Source of the DNA: the human T2T-CHM13v2.0 reference genome, Homo sapiens
DNA: 64,000 bases
Reading direction: 5' to 3' (one strand)
NCBI RefSeq assembly: GCF_009914755.1
Contig: NC_060925.1
Shown here: positions 18,306 through 54,655 of the stretch, in pieces
How positions within the stretch are numbered: position 1 is the first letter of the stretch
Layout: every line of letters starts with the position of its first letter
Position numbers and translations under genes: made by a program
The notes under the pieces: model-generated
Databases searched by the model: none
Told to the model about the DNA's origin: nothing
What the model saw: the letters and a program-made list of their open reading frames with translations, nothing else

Positions 18306-19934
18306 TGGGTGTCATTGGTGGACAGATCTTACCTGTGTTCTTAAGCCAGTGTTGTCATCATGTGTATTGTTATAGTTAGCCAGACACCAAGATGCTGGCA
18401 CTGACAGCACCACTGTGAGCTAAAAGTCCACAAACTGTGTCAGCGTGGAGCCCTGCACAGTTACCCTAGCCAATAATGCTTTTGAAAAACAGGAAGTAAG
18501 AGAGTTGACTTTTTCAGCATTAATGCTCAAGGTAAAGTGTTATGACTGAATTAACTGAAATCAACTACTATTTCCTTAACACAACTTGGATAAAAACCTT
18601 TTTCTGCAATCACAGCTGGCACTGTGGTGCCGGTTTTATGGGAAATTGAGGGCTATGATAGCCCCTGTGATGTCTGTCAGCATCCTCTTTCAAAGTGGGA
18701 AAAGAAAAGCTCTCTTCCTTAATATAACACTGAGTTACCAGTTACTGGGCGATAGGCCCTAGAGCATTAAAGAGTTTCATGGCTCTTTCCATGACTCAGA
18801 GGCCCTTCTTTGTTTTCTTCTGGGAAGACACATGCAAGGAAGCTGGGTTAGGCCCTTCCCTGTGACAGTCAGACTTACCATGACCTTCCAGGTCTAAAGC
18901 CCAGTCTTACCATTACAAACTCCTTCCTCAACCAACGGTGCTCTCTCCAGGGGCCCCACCATTCCTGCCAGCACTCTGCCTACCTCTGGAACTGTCTCCA
19001 GACATGCCCATGAATGCTGAAGACCCTACTGAGGCAAATATTTCCATTTTGCCCCCAGCAAACTTCTCAGCCTCCTTATAAATCAATGGATGCCAATCAT
19101 TGCTTAAAGGGAAGAGACGTTGTCTAATTCTGCATCACAGCCATATCTGTCTGAATTCTGACCCATCTGGGACATTGTATTGCACAAGAAATAGAAAAAT
19201 AATTCATGAAGTTCCTAGCATAATTCTTCTGTTTAGTAGGTATTCAAAAATTGGTAACTATTGTAATTACTTACGTAGTAGTTTAATGGGCAATTGTAAA
19301 CATATTGTTTATAATTTTTGTTTTTTTCAAAATGTTTTACAAAATCATGTGTTATATAATAAGAAGCAAATTCTTTCAAAAAAAATAAAACACACACACA
19401 CACACCAAACTCTTGACACATAGCTGTTTTCTTCCCCTCCTTTTCATCTAAACTTCTCAGAAAAGTGTCTTGCACTCACTATTTCCACTTCCTCAACTTG
19501 CTTCTATCTAGCTTCTGCCCCGATCATTCCTCTAAAAATTGATCTCACTGAAGCCACCAGCTGCTTTTGAATGTTCTTCCCTCAGGAGTATGTTGGTGGG
19601 TCTGGGAAGGGAAGGCACCCTCAGGTAAATAATAACCCAGAGCAGAGTGGATTGAGTAGAAGGGAGAGGACAAGGATACAAGAGGTGAGGCAATGTCATC
19701 CAAGTTGAAAGAATGGTGCAGAACCAAAGTTGGATCCAAACACTCACCTTGTCCAAGAGCCAGGTATTCCAGTTAGAAGTCTGCTCACCTGAGCAGAAGA
19801 GAGAGTCCAGAAACAAGCCAACTCCAAACAGGTAATAAACTGAAAAACCAAAGTAGTCCCAGAAGGAAGAGTGCAAGGAGTTGGAAGGCCAAGAGGAATT
19901 CCACATTCAGCAACTTACCAGCTGCATTTGGCTG

Positions 19935-20420
19935 GGCCTTCCTGGGAATATGTGATGAAACGTCCAGATCTACAATGCTATCTCTTTCAGAAATGAGAGA
20001 TGGGCTCCCAGGGCACTCCTATACTGGATATGTCAACACAGTGCCTGCCACACCCAACTTCCTCTTTGAGATGAAAGTGCCCCACCCACAGCCCCCTGCT
20101 TTGAGAAGCAGAGGTAGGTTGTTCTTTGCCCAGGGATGGCTCCTGATTGGACCAATGATTGGCCCTTGACATTAGGGGCTGCCTTCCCAAAAACCAGGGC
20201 TTGAATGGAAAAGGTAAGTTTGATCAATCAGATTCTCTCCTTCTGGGATTTGAATTGGGAAACATGGATAGAAAGAAGCAGTTAGCCATGGGAGCTGAAG
20301 CTGAAAGGATGGCATACAATGGAGTGGAGCCATGGAGGATTATAGCAAACCAAAACTATGAGGAAGCAGAACCATGTGATAAGAAGGCAGAATTTATGAA
20401 TAAGCAGCAATTCTGAGGTA
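19935..20420. mobile_element. Old MaLR/ERVL-type LTR relic
   Basis: tgattggaccaatg...caatcagattctctccttctgggatttgaattgg motif of old MLT1/LTR-class elements. Confidence 0.5.
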
Positions 20421-20964
20421 GAGAAAATACATGAAAAGTAAACAGAATTTTTTAGTTGGAATAAGACAGCAAGAAGCAAACCTGCAAAGAGTCGCAAGAA
20501 ATGAGAAGTGGTGCACAATTGTCATTAAGATCCTATCATCTGGCTCAACTAAGAGCCAGTTTCAGATCACCCGGATTTACTAAGGCTCCTGTGCTCTTCA
20601 TCAGATTTACCCCAGCTTTCCAGGTTTCCATGCTGGTATTTCTTGGGCTCCTACTATGAGCTAGGCACAGTTCTAGGTGTTTGGGATCTAAGGGCAAATG
20701 AAACAGGAAAATACTTAAACCCCTCATAACTTGCGGCAGGGTCTCTGTTTCAAAGGGCCAAGTTAAAATAACTACTCTTGCCTTCACCATTTCCCATGGT
20801 CCAGTTGGTGTCATTATGTTGTCATTATGAGTCTACACCCACTTTGGCATGCAGTTCATATATATCACCTCCACTGCTAGGGTGGGTAACTGGAGAATCA
20901 GGAAAAGAGAAAATAAAAAACAGAAGTTGGGAGATGGGACATGAAGGAAGTCAGATGATGTATG

Positions 20965-21215
20965 ATAATGGCAGCAGAGTGGCTGAATGCCCAGGCTTTA
21001 AATTAACTTGCATTCAAAATTTTGCTCTATCACTTATTCATTAAGCGGCTTTTTTGGCAGGTCAGTTTTCTCAGCTGTGAGCTAGAGATAAAATAGCATT
21101 CTCCTCATTGCATTTTTTGAGAATTAAGTGAGAAAATATATGCAGAGCATTTAGCATAGTACTTGGCCCATAGTAAATGCTTGATAAATGGTAACTATTT
21201 TTGCTGATGCTATTA
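20965..21215 (+). mobile_element. MIR SINE
   Basis: tcagttttctcagctgtga..., gcatttagcatagtacttggcccatagtaaatgcttgataaatg. Confidence 0.75.
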
Positions 21216-21413
21216 TTATCAGCAATCCTCTAGTTTTCCCATTAGTTGGATAGAATGAATGGGCTGGCGGGGAATTAGATGGCATCCTATGTCAAACCTC
21301 TCTGAAGGCTGATGCCAGCCATAACATAGTAGGCTCATTAAAGCTCCTTCTAGTTGGTGCATTCCTTCCCGGGTACTGTCTAGCTGCAGGAATATCAATA
21401 ATACCAAGAAGAG

Positions 21414-21729
21414 GGCCAGGCACGGTGGCTCACGCCTGTAATCCCAGCACTTTGGGAGGCCGAGGCGGGCGGATCATGAGGTCAGGAGATCGAGACCATC
21501 CTGGCTAACACAGTGAAACCCCGTCTCTACTAAAAATACAAAAAATTAGCCAGCCATGGTGGCGGGCGCCTGTAGTCCCAGCTACTCGGGAGGCTGAGGC
21601 AGGAGAATGGCGTGAACCCGGGAGGCGGAGCTTGCAGTGAGTCAAGAGATCGCGCCACTGCACTCCAGCCTGGGCCAAAGTGCGAGACTCCGTCTCAAAA
21701 AATAAAAAAATAAAAAACAATAATAATAA
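21414..21729 (+). mobile_element. AluY, full length
   Basis: gagatcgagaccatcctggctaac, gaatggcgtgaacccgggaggcggagcttgcag; TSD accaagaagag. Confidence 0.97.
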
Positions 21730-22123
21730 AACCAAGAAGAGGTGTAAAAAAAACACTAAGGACAAAAACCGTTGTATGCAAAAAAAACAGTTCTGGAGGG
21801 CAGGCAATAATAATTAGTGAAAGCAAAGTGTGTAGCAGTGATATTAGCCAGAGCAGTCAGTTGTGTGGGGGAGGCAAAAAAGCACATTTATTTCTTAAGC
21901 ACTACTTTTGTCACCTGTCTAGGGGTGGTGGGTATGTGGATGTAGACCTGATAGGCCCAAACTGAGGCATAGCTGAGGGCTGTGGTTGGAAAGCAGTGCT
22001 TTGAGAGACCATGAAAGTAGAAGCCCTCTTTTACCTATCAGGGTATAAATGACTGGAATGGGTGGAGGAGCAATGCAGGGAGGGAAGAGGGCAGAGTCAG
22101 GGAAGAGGTCAAGAGGGGCAGAC

Positions 22124-22238
22124 CTCCCAATGACTTGGGCGGCTGAGGTGGGAGGATAACCTGAGCCCATGAGTTTGAGTTCAGCCTGGGCAACATAGCA
22201 AGACCCTGTCTCTATAACAATCAATCAATCAATCAATC
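22124..22238 (+). mobile_element. FLAM / Alu monomer with (TCAA)n tail
   Basis: ggctgaggtgggaggat...cagcctgggcaacatagcaagaccctgtctct; flanking gggcagac repeated. Confidence 0.85.
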
Positions 22239-22959
22239 CAGGAAGCGGGCAGACAACAAATAGAAGTCCCAAAACTGGAGTTTCAGATGCGAGTGTGGAT
22301 CAGAAGGAGTCACCGCGGCTCTAGAGGAACCCTGAGGTATCTTTGCTTTGGGTCCAGGTGCTTTTGTGGTAGTGTACCAGACCATATCACCTCAGAGAGG
22401 GCCAGTGGCTGTGCTGAGGCTGCATTCTGGCCTTCCTAGCAGGGATGAGCACTGCCTTACTCCTATAAAGACCTTCGTGGCATTTAACATCAATCCATAT
22501 TGCCCCAAGAGGCCCTGTATCAGGATTAAGACCATGCATAAATGTCTAAAATACATCATTTGAGCAGAATGATTGTGAAATACTCAAGCCATAGTCTTCC
22601 AGAGTGAGTCTCTCTGTTACCTCTTGTACTCAGGCTTTCAGGATAGAGAATCTGGTCTGTGATTCTGAGTGCTGGGCACACAGCTGATGGAGCACCCAAG
22701 CACAGATAAGGTGAGCTGCCTTGCATAGCATGAGCTGAGCTTTCAGGCTATGGCAGACTGAAGTCCCTATCACACATTGGACCCTCTAGGGCTTGAAAAC
22801 ATGCTTGACCACAGGCCCTTCCCCTTTCCACGCAGGGATAATGAAGTGTGGCATAAAGCTTCTCCTGGGTCAGGGTGGCCCACTCCACAGTGTTGGCAGC
22901 ACCAGTCTCAACAGTGTGATGCTGAATGAAGCTAGGTTCCAGCTGTGTAGAGCTGGCAT

Positions 22960-23189
22960 GCAGGTGCAGAGGACACACTGTGGAGCTGAGTTGCTTGCAT
23001 TCATTTCTATTCTTAGTAAATTTTTTACCTGTATGGCTTTATAGGAGTTACTTTATCACTCCATGTTTCAGTTTCCTCATCCGCAAAACAGCAATAATAA
23101 TAGCATATAGCTCATAGGGTTATCATGAGTATTAAATTAGTTAATATAGGCAAGCCCTTTCAGCAGTGCCTGGCACATCGTCAGTGCTT
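22960..23189 (+). mobile_element. MIR SINE inserted into the Gypsy fossil
   Basis: tcagtttcctcatccgcaaaac...ctcatagggttatcatgagtattaaat...cagtgcctggcacatcgtcagtgct. Confidence 0.85.
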
Positions 23190-23913
23190 GCTTGTGCTGT
23201 ACTGGAGCAGAGGTGCAGCGAGTCTTGACTTGCCAAACATAGTGTCAACCTCAGCACATCAGGAAACTTCCTTCTCTATTTTAGGAGGTCATTACTAGGG
23301 CAGTTGCACAGAAAAAGACAAAATGGTGTTAGACATCTCTTGAAAATGTCTAGGTAACCTCAGTGACCAGGGTGTCTCTCACTCCAGAATCACAGATAAC
23401 TGGCTACACTGAACTTGGTTCAGAAATGTCACACATTTCTGTGCTGTTTTGAAGGTGCTGATGTTTCAGGTAACTCAGAACTGTTGGGGCCAGAGTATTG
23501 TATGAAGCATAGCTAGTCAGGTTGCATGTGGATGTTTCAGGATATATTAGGACATTTTCCAAGAAGAGCAAAAAGCATCCCCTTGAAAGTCCTGCAGGAT
23601 ACTGATCATGCTGCTGCCATAGGTCAAGAGGCATTGTGTTCTCTGCAAACTCTCTGTCATCCAAATGCAACGATGGAAGGCAGACAAGGTGCTAGGCACT
23701 CAGAAGATCTAATTTTATGGTCCTTCTGAGCTGGCCCAGGAGAGAGGGAACCAGACAGTATTAGGATCCCAGTAATCCTAGCAGAGGGCCCAGTCATCTG
23801 CTTTTCTTCCTCACAAAGTTCTCCACTGCCTTCTTGGGAGAGATAGGGCCCCAGTGGATTTCAAGGCCTATGAATTCCTACCGAGTCTCAAGTTATGGGT
23901 GTTGTGGTGGCCA

Positions 23914-24101
23914 CAGGGAGGCCAGATAAAATTCAGAACACCAATTAAATTTGAATTTCAAATAAATGATGAATAATGTCTTAATATATATCTATCCCAA
24001 ATATTGTGTGGCATATACTTATACCAAATATGTATTTGTTATCTGAAGTTCAAATTTAACTGGGTATCCTGTATTTTCATCTTCTAAGTCTGGTAACCCT
24101 C
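23914..24101 (+). mobile_element. MER53 palindromic hAT MITE
   Basis: cagggaggccagataaaattcag...ttaaatttgaatttca...tgaagttcaaatttaactggg...tctggtaaccct; internal inverted symmetry. Confidence 0.9.
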
Positions 24102-25519
24102 ACTGAGGGATATGGTCAGGGAAGGCTGATGGATGGGTGCAGCCTCCAACTAAACAAAAATAATAGAGATGCTACAGGTTTCTGGTGCCCTCACATCAGA
24201 GGGGACTCTTCTTGCAGGACTTTCGAGGAGATGCTTTTTGCTTTTCTTCATAATACTGGCTCATTCGGTTCAAATCTCTGAGAGTGAGGCAGGTCTGGAC
24301 ACTTACCCAACTCTGATGCTGTAGTTGCCTACTCTACAGATTTCAAGGACTCTTGCCAATCAATCAGGGCTATGAGAAAGTCCCAGTGGTGTCCACACAG
24401 TGTGGGCTTCCAGACTATAGCCAGGCCACTATCCAGAAGACATGAGAAGTCCCATTTACATAAGTATCCTCTTCCCCAAATATAAGCCTTCTATCTCCAT
24501 AAACTAGTGGAGCTGTGACAAAAAATAACATGGCAACTGGGAAGGCTCACCTGAAGACAGACAGCTTGCTCTGGCAACAGGCAGTGCAAGACTTGGCAAA
24601 TCTGACCAGCAACCTGTGATCTCAAAGGCAGCAGCCCTGTTGTCAGACATTTGCTACATCTACAGAACAGATACAGCAACCACCAGCTGAGACCACAACT
24701 CATTTCCCGTATGGAGGCTGAGTTTCAGAGAATCAGCTGGAGATACAGCCCTGTGGATTGAGGGTCAGTGCCCAACCTCACTGACTGTAGGTGGGAGTGG
24801 GTAGTAACCAAAAATAAGGATGTGGTGTAACGCTGGGTTTCCTAAGCTGAGAGAACAGTCCAGAACCTCAGAGAAGTGTACATAGGTAGAGACTGAAAGC
24901 CAGGTCACTAAGACCCAGAAACAAAGATCTATCCAGACAGGTAAAAAATTCAAGGCATTCTTGAGAAACAAAGTTCAGAGAGTGAACCAGCAACAGGTTG
25001 ATGTTTCCAAAGTCAGTGTGTGACTAGCCACCTGTGTTTTTTTATTATTATTCCTGAGTTGTGGGTGGGGAATAGGCTGGTTACAGATGCTTCCCTGAGA
25101 TTAGGGATGCTGTCAGGGGGCAGACCTAACTCTCAACACCAAGGAACATTTCCAAGGTCTGCTCTTCAGCTACTCTGTTATCCCTGACTTTGTTAGACCC
25201 TCCCTTTCGTTGTCACTCTCTGCACACTTGGCTTCTGAGACTGTGCTCTTCAAGTCTCCCTCTAGCTGCTCCTTCTCTGTCTTCTCCAAGGTCTCTTTTT
25301 CTTCCTGCTCCTTAAGTGTTCATATTCCTTAGGGTCCTGCCCTTAGCCCACTGCTCTTCTCTTTTCTTTCTATCTTTGGTTTCTGGATGTTCTCATTTGC
25401 CGTCATGGTTCCAACTGAGACTGTACCTGGCTAAAATGTCAGTTACACAGATTAAACACTTGCATCTTTTTTGCAACTTCCTAGCTGTGAGACCTAGGCT
25501 AAATTATATCAACTTTTAG

Positions 25520-25825
<306 letters not shown>

Positions 25826-25875
25826 CTAAGCTTCCCTCTTTTAAACTCATCAGCCAAATGAGTATAAATAACATC

Positions 25876-25878
<3 letters not shown>

Positions 25879-25924
<46 letters not shown>
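25879..25924. repeat. (TA)n microsatellite, about 23 units
   Basis: Uninterrupted tatata run. Confidence 0.98.
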
Positions 25925-25926
<2 letters not shown>

Positions 25927-26500
25927 CAGCTTATATGGTTACATGAACATTAAATAATACAACATACGCAAATTGTATGAAAATTCTTAGCATAGTGCCT
26001 GACACATAGCAAATAGTCAATAAATGCAACCCTAATAGTGATTATTATTATTTACATGGTCTTGCATCTCAGAGCTTTGTTTCCAGCTTAGTACTCTCTC
26101 AGGAGCCACACTCGTATATCCAGCTGTCCACTGCATATTTCTACACGGATGTTCCAAAGACACCTTATATTCATTGCATCAAAAATGAAACTTGTTTTGT
26201 CTCCTTCTAAACCTCTTTTTCTTCTCTCTTCTCTACCTCACTTGTTGACACTATCATTTATCAGTCACCCAAGCTGGAATCTTAGAAATTATTTTTCATT
26301 TCTGTCTTTTCCTTGGCATTGCCACCCAACTCTGCTCCTTATCAAATTAACCATTAGAATCTGATAATTTTACTTCTTCAACTTTTTCATTTTACATTCT
26401 CTCCCCATTTCTTGATAAAAACATCTTTAGAAAGCAATGATTCAAGGCTGAGTCCCTGGCTTTTTAGAAGTTTGTGACTTTGGTGGCAAAAACAGACTCT

Positions 26501-53128: not shown

Positions 53129-54655
53129 TTTTCTTTTTTAAATTTTAAATACATTTTTATTTCAATAACTTTAAGGGTATAAGTGGTGTTTGGTTACATG
53201 GATGAACTGTATAGTGGTGAAGTCTGATATTTTAGTACCCCTGTCACCCTAGTAGTATACATTGTACCCAATATGCAGTTTTTTATCCCTCACCTTCCTC
53301 CCAACCTTCCCCTGTCTGAATCTCAAATGTCCATTATACCACTTTGTAAGCCTTTGTGTACCCATAACTTAACTCCCACTTATAAGTGAGAACATATGGC
53401 ATTTGGTTTTCCATTCCTGAGTTATTTCACTTAAAATAATGGCCTCCAGCTCCATCCAAGTTGTGCAAGACATTATTTCATTCTTTTTTGTGGCTGAGTA
53501 GTATTCCATGGCATGTATATACCACATTTTCTTTATCCACTAATTGGTTGATGGGCTCTTAGGTTAGTTCTATACCTTTGCCATTGTCAATTGTGCTGCG
53601 ATAAACATACATGTGCAGATATAATGATTTATTTTCCTTTTTGATATAATGACTTATTTTCCTTTGGGTAGATACCCAACAGTGGGATTGCTACTTTTAG
53701 TTCTTTGAGAAATCGTCATACTGTTTTCCATAGATGTTATATTAATTTACATTCCCACTAGCAGTGTATAAGTGTTCCCTTTTCACCACATCTGTGACAA
53801 CATCTATTGCTTTTTGGATTTTTAACAATGGCCATTCTGGTTGGGGTAAAGTGGTATCTCATTGTGGCTTTGATTTGCATTTCCCTGATGTTCAGTGATG
53901 TTGAAATTTTTTCCATGTTTATTGGCCATTTGTGTATCTTCTTTTGAGAAGCATCTATTCATGTAAATTGCCCACTTTTTAATGGAATTATTTGTTTTTT
54001 TTTTCCTGCTGATTTGTTTGAGCTCCTTGTAGATCCTGGATATTAGTCCTTTCTTAGATGGATACTTGCAAATATCTTCTCCCATTCTGTGGGTTTTCTC
54101 TTTACTCTGATGATTATATATTTTGCCGCACAAAAGCCTTTCAGTTTAATCAGGTTCCGTTTATTTGTTTAAATTTTTGTTGCATTTGCTTTTGGGGTCT
54201 TAGTCATAATTTTTTGCCTAGGCCAAAGTCCAGAAGAATTTTTCCTATGTTTTCTTCTAGAATTGTTATGGTTTCAAGTCTTATATTTAAGTCTTTATTC
54301 CATCTTAGGGTGATTTTTGTATGTGGTGAGAGAGATGGATCCAGTTTCATTCTTCTATCCAGTGGCTCTCCAGTTTTCACAGAACCATTTACTAAATAGG
54401 GTGTCCTTTTCCCAATTTATGTTTTTGTATGCTTTGTTGAAGATCAGTTGGTTCTAAGTATCTAGCTTTACTTCCAGGTTCTCTAGTCTGTTCCACTGGT
54501 CTATGCATCTACTTTTATATCAGTACCATGCTGTTTCGATTACTATAACCTTGTAGTATAATTTGAAGTTGGGTAATGTGATGCCTCCAGATTTGTTCTT
54601 TTTGCTTAGGATTGCTTTGGCTATTTAGGCCCTTTTATGATTCCATATGAATTTT
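53129..54655 (-). mobile_element. L1PB-like 3' fragment
   Basis: ORF2 peptide [14 protein letters not shown]...NSIKKWA; 3' UTR tggttacatggatgaa..tatagtggtgaagtctga; TSD acatttaggtttt/acatttaagtttt. Confidence 0.93.

What the first reader, a model, noticed from the sequence alone, without database searches (positions are those of the whole stretch)
24360..24700. Gag relic resembling the RTL/SIRH (PEG10, RTL6, LDOC1) capsid N-terminal domain
Seen on the minus strand across frameshifts: LRSQVA, then CLLPEQ / SGEPSQLPCYFLSQLH*FMEI, MGLLMS, and LLDSGLAIVW..WDFLIAL. From memory, RTL-family Gag reads roughly PEPFSGDP.RL.GFL.Q...FM...V.FL.S.LTG.A..W...FLAEL. Inference: the gag points to the sushi-like clade rather than an ERV, so the locus could be either a provirus or a once-domesticated SIRH-like gene that later died.
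Basis: partly seen in the sequence, partly recalled or inferred. Interest (0 to 1): 0.7.

Follow-up and report, generated by a model that had tools for sequence, protein, structure and literature searches.

The report
Fossil sushi retrotransposon near NOTCH2
This is the broken remnant of a virus-like jumping gene, likely about 130 million years old, whose likely capsid piece best resembles the human gene RTL6, so it is probably a dead relative of the element that mammals tamed into their RTL genes rather than a lost gene.

Summary
The quoted motifs are in the sequence (minus strand, 24625-24365, two frames). Alone they are not significant: Pfam, tblastn and plain frameshift-aware profiles give nothing. 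Context settles it. Downstream on the same strand lie a sushi-type reverse transcriptase relic (23910-23194; 61 bits, null maximum 28) and an RNase H relic (22968-22605). Two 350-400 bp direct repeats (25138-24787, 20038-19641; 61% identical) enclose them as likely LTRs. An ERV profile shows no signal. With a decay-aware model the capsid N-lobe is the window's best hit (13 and 22 of 5223 null tiles reach it), and RTL6 is its best match among 247 proteins. So this is a 5.5-kb, internally deleted, dead Metaviridae element, likely older than the placental radiation, in three 99% identical copies. Integrase was not shown. A lost gene is unlikely (about 10%), but other mammals could not be examined. 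Side result: RTL6's 3' region holds an RT relic sharing third codon positions with this one (57 of 151, 36.5 expected). Whether Dfam already names the element was not testable.

The parts
24787..25138 (-). likely 5' LTR; begins TGTTGA; inner end uncertain (24787 or 24827)
   Evidence: local score 3895 with the other repeat; 0 of 417 window tiles and 0 of 499 Markov tiles reach it; global 60.8% over 339 columns; start motif
24779..24786 (-). 8 nt at the LTR end, complementary to LTR positions 121-128 (window 25018-25011): possible self-priming site
   Evidence: 2.9% of 5000 random 27-mers do as well; the match is absent from the 3' repeat (4 nt); suggestive only
24326..24557 (-). decayed gag capsid N-terminal lobe (the finding); 2-3 stops and 1-2 frameshifts in 64-78 codons
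24210..24248 (+). 39-bp inverted copy (90%) of the RT segment 23561-23599, in the unassigned stretch where capsid C-lobe, zinc knuckle and protease are missing
   Evidence: 0 of 192 null tiles; found only here and in the two duplicates; 24100-24340 matches no gag-pro part (37 of 120 nulls)
23924..24082 (.). palindromic insertion, MER53-like (name recalled)
   Evidence: self-inverted 68%; weak mir-1302 match, 32.4 bits, below the cut-off of 62; miR-1302 derives from MER53 (PMC2996404 abstract)
23194..23910 (-). decayed sushi-type reverse transcriptase (FVRKKSR 23817, KLDLLSA 23715, QDFQGDAF 23594); 10-11 stops and 12-15 frameshifts in 240 codons
23033..23192 (.). high-copy old repeat inserted inside pol, MIR-like (name recalled)
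   Evidence: 37 of 37 non-self genome hits to 22600-23915 fall on this stretch, 71-86% identity; 3 more copies in the window
22605..22968 (-). decayed RNase H (VETGAANT 22912, RPDSLS*KPEY 22658)
   Evidence: 45.2 bits, 0 of 120 same-length nulls; C-part 0 of 78, N-part 2 of 78; alone it is not significant genome-wide (E 39)
20040..22600 (-). expected integrase region; integrase not shown; holds an Alu monomer (22106-22214), an Alu (21407-21737) and a MIR-like piece (about 20980-21240)
   Evidence: H2C2 66 of 78, core 67 of 78, SH3 20 of 78, chromodomain 51 of 78 nulls; 22031-21844 8 of 120; the one low-P hit (2 of 78, end 21020) lies in the MIR-like piece and is discounted; SRP matches
19641..20038 (-). 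likely 3' LTR; begins TGTTGA; a purine-rich stretch (15 of 20, 20045-20064) precedes it
   Evidence: flanks CTTGG and CTGGG match 4 of 5, a possible target-site duplication (weak)

Best explanation
It is the likely capsid N-lobe remnant of a dead sushi-type (Metaviridae, chromovirus) LTR retrotransposon that lies on the minus strand between two likely LTRs (25138 to 19641), likely inserted about 110-160 million years ago, and it now encodes nothing intact. Shown: RT and RNase H relics in order and on one strand, the two similar repeats, stops and frameshifts throughout, later repeat insertions, three near-identical copies. Inferred: the element once copied itself through an RNA packaged by Gag, probably self-primed, and integrated here; it then lost about 0.8 kb (capsid C-lobe, zinc knuckle, protease), gained an inverted 39-bp RT piece in that gap, took MER53-like, MIR-like and Alu insertions, decayed neutrally, and was copied twice by recent segmental duplication.
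For: RT 61.1 bits against 40 Markov 64-kb tiles (maximum 28.3), Gumbel expectation 1.6e-8 per genome; reversed and Markov nulls at most 27.6. Domain ends are colinear: RT-N 23686 (0 of 78), RT-C 23383 (5), thumb 23248 (5), RH-N 22811 (2), RH-C 22626 (0). Sushi, not ERV. Repeat pair 0 of 417 and 0 of 499, both starting TGTTGA. The gag signal sits where gag belongs, 230 bp inside the 5' repeat. K2P between repeats 0.57 (0.47-0.71) gives 107-161 My at a recalled rate of 2.2e-9. MIRs stopped amplifying about 130 My ago (PMC5381342 abstract) and a MIR-like repeat interrupts pol. The duplicates differ by 3-4 substitutions and no indel in 24320-24830.
Against: Gag fails every standard test, and the Gag-Pol profile put its best N-lobe score elsewhere (22783; 15 of 78). 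Integrase, protease, zinc knuckle and chromodomain were not found. No independent family copy was found, though the DNA search is insensitive. LTR ends fit the published sushi motifs only partly. Unrelated DNA also aligns at 55-74% on this matrix, so the age is rough. The codon model was home-made; its first version had a composition artefact, corrected.
Confidence: 0.8

Rival explanations
1. A once-domesticated half-capsid gene, like RTL6, LDOC1 or RTL8, that was kept for a time on top of a decaying element and later died in the human lineage.
For: Only the N-lobe is left, as in those genes (PMC11011659 section 8). Best match is RTL6. Gag has somewhat fewer breaks than RT (5.1-7.8 against 9.2-10.8 per 100 codons). 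RTL6 itself sits above a decayed RT, so a dead pol does not exclude a live gag.
Against: 4-5 breaks against about 7 expected at the RT rate is no real difference (Poisson P 0.17-0.30, by hand). Both LTR-like repeats remain, whereas RTL/SIRH genes lost theirs (PMC10604271 passage; none found at RTL6). Protein searches with the two gag frames gave 0 of 15 and 0 of 19 candidates at E<=10 (insensitive, 82-263 aa only). None of 247 proteins stands out as an ortholog would (best z 4.9).
Confidence: 0.1
2. The retrotransposon is real, but the gag motifs are a chance resemblance in DNA that is too decayed, or foreign.
For: All standard tests are negative; the 128-protein profile gives 30 of 894; several scoring schemes were tried.
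Against: Best site in the window with both RTL profiles, 0.25-0.4% of null tiles; right strand and position; 118 of 247 proteins end their best alignment at 24300-24380 (not independent).
Confidence: 0.07
3. An endogenous retrovirus fragment, or unrelated repeats that lie together by chance.
For: ERVs are by far the commonest RT relics in this genome.
Against: A profile of 24 human ERV RTs scores 16.9 (84 of 326 nulls) against 48.3 for sushi (0 of 326); 10 single ERV RTs score 14-24, the best fish sushi proteins 53-60.
Confidence: 0.03

Closest known systems
Sushi / Tf1-sushi chromoviruses (Metaviridae, V-clade) of fish, e.g. P0158, P0154, P0155
   Same: Order LTR, gag, RT, RNase H, LTR; best RT scores; short distance from LTR to capsid; possible self-priming site as described for the group (PMC6317226 passages).
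   Different: No open frame; about 0.8 kb of gag-pro missing; integrase and chromodomain not detected.
RTL6 (SIRH3, LDOC1L) and the RTL/SIRH genes (names recalled for loci L004-L014)
   Same: Capsid N-lobe, RTL6 best of 247; an RT relic downstream in both, with excess third-position identity.
   Different: No intact ORF; LTR-like repeats kept; RTL6 keeps full capsid-to-RT spacing while this copy is deleted; no significant direct DNA alignment to RTL6 (9 tests, best 14 of 487).
Mammalian Gypsy repeat families: MamGyp-int, MamGypsy2-I/-LTR, MamRep605, X1-X4_LR
   Same: Same kind of object: ancient Gypsy fossils in the human genome (PMC5753468 Table 4; the MamGypsy2 names seen in PMC11353194 and 10.1101/2021.02.16.431334). 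The repeats look MamRep605-like by recall only.
   Different: Membership untested: no repeat library was available. MamGyp-int is tied to PNMA2 (PMC9934673 passage), not to the sushi genes.
Gypsy protein fossils of Frith 2022 (PMC9004415) and the two capsid pseudogenes of Henriques 2024 (PMC11011659)
   Same: Broken Metaviridae coding relics in human DNA.
   Different: Henriques lists 24 intact genes and 2 pseudogenes (PNMA6E/F-like, LDOC1-like), found no flanking LTRs, and does not mention this locus in the parts read. Frith's full list lies outside the paper and was not seen.

Membership tests
Metaviridae (Ty3/Gypsy) LTR retrotransposon | RT of Gypsy type rather than retroviral | tested here: met
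Metaviridae (Ty3/Gypsy) LTR retrotransposon | two direct terminal repeats, TG...CA | tested here: met
   pair significant, both start TG; CA end seen only in the 5' repeat, boundary uncertain
Metaviridae (Ty3/Gypsy) LTR retrotransposon | gag upstream of pol on one strand; RT before RNase H | tested here: met
   gag significant only locally
Metaviridae (Ty3/Gypsy) LTR retrotransposon | protease before RT, integrase after RNase H | tested here: inconclusive
   neither detected (48, 66 and 67 of 78 nulls); space for protease is missing, space for integrase is present
Metaviridae (Ty3/Gypsy) LTR retrotransposon | target-site duplication and polypurine tract | tested here: inconclusive
   4 of 5 match; 15 of 20 purines
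Tf1/sushi chromovirus group | RT closest to vertebrate sushi elements | tested here: inconclusive
   fish sushi proteins rank first, above fungal, algal and ERV ones, but other Gypsy clades (Gmr1, Mag, Barthez) were not in the comparison and no tree was built
Tf1/sushi chromovirus group | capsid N-lobe of DUF4939/RTL type | tested here: inconclusive
   Pfam negative; decay-aware profile positive
Tf1/sushi chromovirus group | self-priming site instead of a tRNA primer site | tested here: inconclusive
   8-nt complement, P about 0.03
Tf1/sushi chromovirus group | chromodomain after integrase | tested here: inconclusive
   not detected, 51 of 78 nulls; decay could hide it
RTL/SIRH domesticated gene | intact gag-derived ORF | tested here: not met
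   stops in all three minus frames of 24320-24830, longest open stretch 77 codons and upstream of most of the domain
RTL/SIRH domesticated gene | LTRs lost | tested here: not met
   against PMC10604271 passage
RTL/SIRH domesticated gene | orthologous ORF under purifying selection in placentals | not testable with these tools
   no other mammal genome held; protein searches negative but weak
MamGypsy2 / MamRep605 / MamGyp repeat families | match to the library model | not testable with these tools
   no Dfam or Repbase library; resemblance recalled only
Endogenous retrovirus | retroviral RT | tested here: not met

The most novel reading that the evidence does not exclude
This is a two-LTR fossil of the very retrotransposon family that was tamed into RTL6, and RTL6 still carries that element's reverse transcriptase in its 3' UTR. 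The lost source element of the RTL/SIRH genes, with its LTRs and priming site, would then be readable in the human genome, and RTL6 would be a direct insertion whose 3' UTR is the element's own pol rather than newly recruited DNA.
Probability: 0.35. Interest if true: 0.72.

Novelty: new member of a known kind. Interest (0 to 1): 0.45.

Why it matters
[quoted passage not shown] A copy with both LTRs, gag, RT and RNase H in place dates the family's activity and gives it an anatomy. If it is RTL6's family, it bears on whether the RTL genes arose by separate insertions or by duplication, and on the claim that their 3' UTRs were recruited de novo. If Dfam already names it, it is an ordinary old repeat with no known function.

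Tried and rejected
Pfam on 12 and 3 window frames: nothing relevant. tblastn with human RTL proteins: nothing. Amino-acid profiles with frameshifts: gag at noise level; RT 28.0 against null maximum 26.3. The top gag-profile hit at 54055-53764 (26 bits) reads as an L1 ORF2 end (recalled), which shows the noise level. First codon model: reversed nulls scored up to 130, so it was discarded. Protease profile from 11 proteins: nothing. Searches for family copies: DNA queries returned only the 3 duplicates; a two-repeat profile over the 318,710 bases held found no further copy; the C15 RNase H fossil shares no DNA; apparent 3' matches to L065 and L066 failed against real-sequence nulls (10 and 2 of 77), and L066 and L068 read as ERV integrases. 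The inverted 39-mer as a DNA-transposon end: rejected, it is an RT segment and occurs nowhere else. An inversion between its arms: rejected, RT runs colinearly across the inner arm. The integrase hit ending at 21020 was dropped because it lies in a MIR-like piece. Direct DNA alignment to RTL6: 0 of 9 tests clearly significant; the four LTR tests had Alu-inflated nulls. Pol relics at other RTL loci: of 18 loci scanned, a clear RT signal outside coding sequence appeared only at RTL6. No structure prediction or tree was run. Earlier scan findings were not available.

Full report
Observation. The six quoted motifs are on the minus strand between 24625 and 24365, in two frames. Standard tests do not support them. 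Pfam finds no family in the minus frames. Genome-wide searches with DUF4939, Retrotrans_gag and Ty3_capsid list 12, 7 and 8 places and not this one. tblastn gives E 8 or worse here. Frameshift-aware amino-acid profiles give 20.0 and 16.1 bits against null maxima of 18-22. DNA alignment to 13 RTL-type loci is at null level. The window is human (annotation added to the finding); gene names for the unnamed loci are recalled from their sequences and positions.

The pol relic. I collected 150 Gag-like proteins and scored each across 19000-26000. The two best minus-strand hits (34 and 33; null maximum 32.5) both aligned their reverse transcriptase to 23916-23380. With 42 Gag-Pol polyproteins (41 of the 120, plus P0106) a plain profile gave 28.0 against 26.3. 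I then wrote a model that lets codons decay neutrally. Its first version had a composition artefact. The corrected one gives 57-61 bits for RT at 23910-23194 against nulls of at most 27.6; a Gumbel fit gives 1.6e-8 expected per genome. RNase H follows at 22968-22605 (0 of 120 nulls; E 39 genome-wide on its own). Domain ends run in order: 23686, 23383, 23248, 22811, 22626, reached by 0, 5, 5, 2 and 0 of 78 null tiles. Capsid C-lobe, zinc knuckle, protease, integrase zinc finger, integrase core, SH3 and chromodomain were not found (60, 55, 48, 66, 67, 20, 51 of 78). One integrase hit (2 of 78) lies in a MIR-like piece and was dropped. A profile of 24 human ERV RTs shows nothing (84 of 326) where the sushi profile scores 0 of 326, and fish sushi proteins rank first of 33 single proteins. 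Other Gypsy clades were not compared.

The repeats. 25138-24787 and 20038-19641 align with score 3895. A first, wider test was marginal (null maximum 3693 of 123), owing to a CT-rich flank; the tighter test gives 0 of 417 and 0 of 499. Both start TGTTGA. Globally they are 60.8% identical over 339 columns, K2P 0.57 (0.47-0.71), with flanks CTTGG and CTGGG. Published sushi LTR ends are TGTYANR and CNTNACA (PMC3601003 Table 3): the starts fit in part, and an exact CNTNACA lies at 24833-24827, 40 bp inside the aligned end, so that boundary is uncertain. Eight bases at the 5' repeat's end are complementary to a site inside it (P about 0.03), as expected for self-priming in the Tf1/sushi group (PMC6317226 passages); this is suggestive only.

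Back to gag. A 128-protein profile is weaker (30 of 894), and the Gag-Pol profile preferred another site. Among 247 single proteins the best are an RTL6-like protein (P0025, z 4.9) and human RTL6 (z 4.1); three others follow closely (z 4.1, 3.8, 3.8), and the median is 0.6. Given strand, position and order I take the gag as likely real. The part upstream of 24560 is unsupported (94 of 120).

History. N-lobe end to RT start spans about 350 codons in the profile but 416 bp here, of which 160-190 are a palindromic insert (weak mir-1302 match; miR-1302 derives from MER53, PMC2996404 abstract). So about 0.8 kb are missing. The gap holds a 39-bp inverted copy of an RT segment, found only here and in the duplicates. 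A high-copy repeat interrupts pol at 23033-23192 (37 of 37 non-self hits), MIR-like by recall; MIRs stopped amplifying about 130 My ago (PMC5381342 abstract). LTR divergence gives 107-161 My at a recalled rate, near the limit of alignment. Two 99% copies exist on chromosome 1, with no indel and 3-4 substitutions in the gag region.

Provirus or lost gene. Breaks per 100 codons are 5.1-7.8 in gag and 9.2-10.8 in RT: 4-5 events against about 7 expected, no real difference. Both LTR-like repeats remain, unlike in RTL genes (PMC10604271 passage). Protein searches with the two gag frames found 0 of 15 and 0 of 19, which is weak evidence. In favour of a lost gene: only the N-lobe survives, as in LDOC1-type genes, and RTL6 shows that a live half-capsid gene can sit above a dead pol. 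Other mammals could not be examined. I give the dead element 0.8, a lost gene 0.1, chance gag 0.07 and an ERV 0.03.

The RTL6 link. Scanning 18 loci, I found an RT relic downstream of RTL6 (60.0 against a null maximum of 31.4 in 40). Aligned through the profile, the two relics share 38%, 44% and 38% of bases at codon positions 1-3. Third positions match in 57 of 151 (36.5 shuffled); window against RTL1 gives 45 of 179 (40.7) and RTL6 relic against RTL1 52 of 146 (43.0, P 0.048). For different families the expected third-to-second excess ratio is 0.22; the observed count has P 0.006-0.07 for ratios 0.2-0.4. Against the link: none of 9 direct DNA alignments is clearly significant (best 14 of 487), no LTR-like match was seen at RTL6, and only 4 of 15 fourfold sites agree. 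I put the same family at about 0.5, and the whole novel case, including that it is undescribed, at 0.35.

What is known. Human Gypsy fossils are a known class (PMC5753468, passages and Table 4; PMC9004415, passages). Henriques 2024 (PMC11011659: abstract, section 5, first part of section 8, passages, one search of its supplement, which was cut when stored and had 0 hits for NOTCH2) lists 24 genes and 2 pseudogenes and found no flanking LTRs; its 16-kb flank search mentions no RT at RTL6 in the part read. PMC3670739 (passages, section 14) speaks of highly fragmented fossils and de novo 3' UTRs. Also seen as passages: PMC9934673, PMC10604271, PMC9641642, PMC6317226, PMC3601003, PMC1914374, PMC11353194, 10.1101/2021.02.16.431334; as abstracts: PMC5381342, PMC2996404. 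Searches showed no description of this locus or of the RTL6 relic in their listings or in the passages read. Dfam, RepeatMasker tracks, Frith's data files and supplement, and bioRxiv supplements were not seen and may already name both; families called MamGypsy2-I and MamGypsy2-LTR exist.

Verdict. A real, dead sushi-type retrotransposon; a new member of a known kind; no function shown. Interest 0.45, carried mostly by the possible tie to RTL6.

Noticed in passing
L008/L070, G000:C22:44978890-44979850 (minus): A decayed sushi-type RT lies about 0.8-1.8 kb downstream of the RTL6 stop (name recalled), at full-element spacing: 60.0 bits against a null maximum of 31.4 in 40. PMC3670739 gives a 4,267-bp 3' UTR and calls such UTRs de novo.
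   Followed up: partly
L069, G000:C15:69118551-69118841 (minus): Isolated, well preserved Gypsy RNase H fossil: 94 bits, 5 stops, far above all other hits; no other domain nearby and no DNA match to this element. Possibly exapted.
   Followed up: partly
L013, G000:C18:5400521-5400762 (plus): Frameshifted LDOC1-like capsid pseudogene; probably the one mentioned in PMC11011659.
   Followed up: partly
L065, G000:C8:11473489-11473587 (minus): Tf2-type SH3 integrase-end relic with a stop, possibly another sushi fossil; its link to this element is not significant.
   Followed up: partly
window 53764-54055 (minus): Unmasked stretch that reads as the end of an old L1 ORF2 (recalled).
   Followed up: no
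G000:C1:145.38 Mb and 146.07 Mb: The two 99% copies carry both repeats and the interior; probably the NOTCH2NL duplications (recalled).
   Followed up: partly
window 24210-24248 and 23561-23599: The inverted RT copy is 90% identical to its source while the LTR-like repeats are 61% alike, so it looks younger than the insertion; its mechanism is unexplained (templated repair is a guess).
   Followed up: partly
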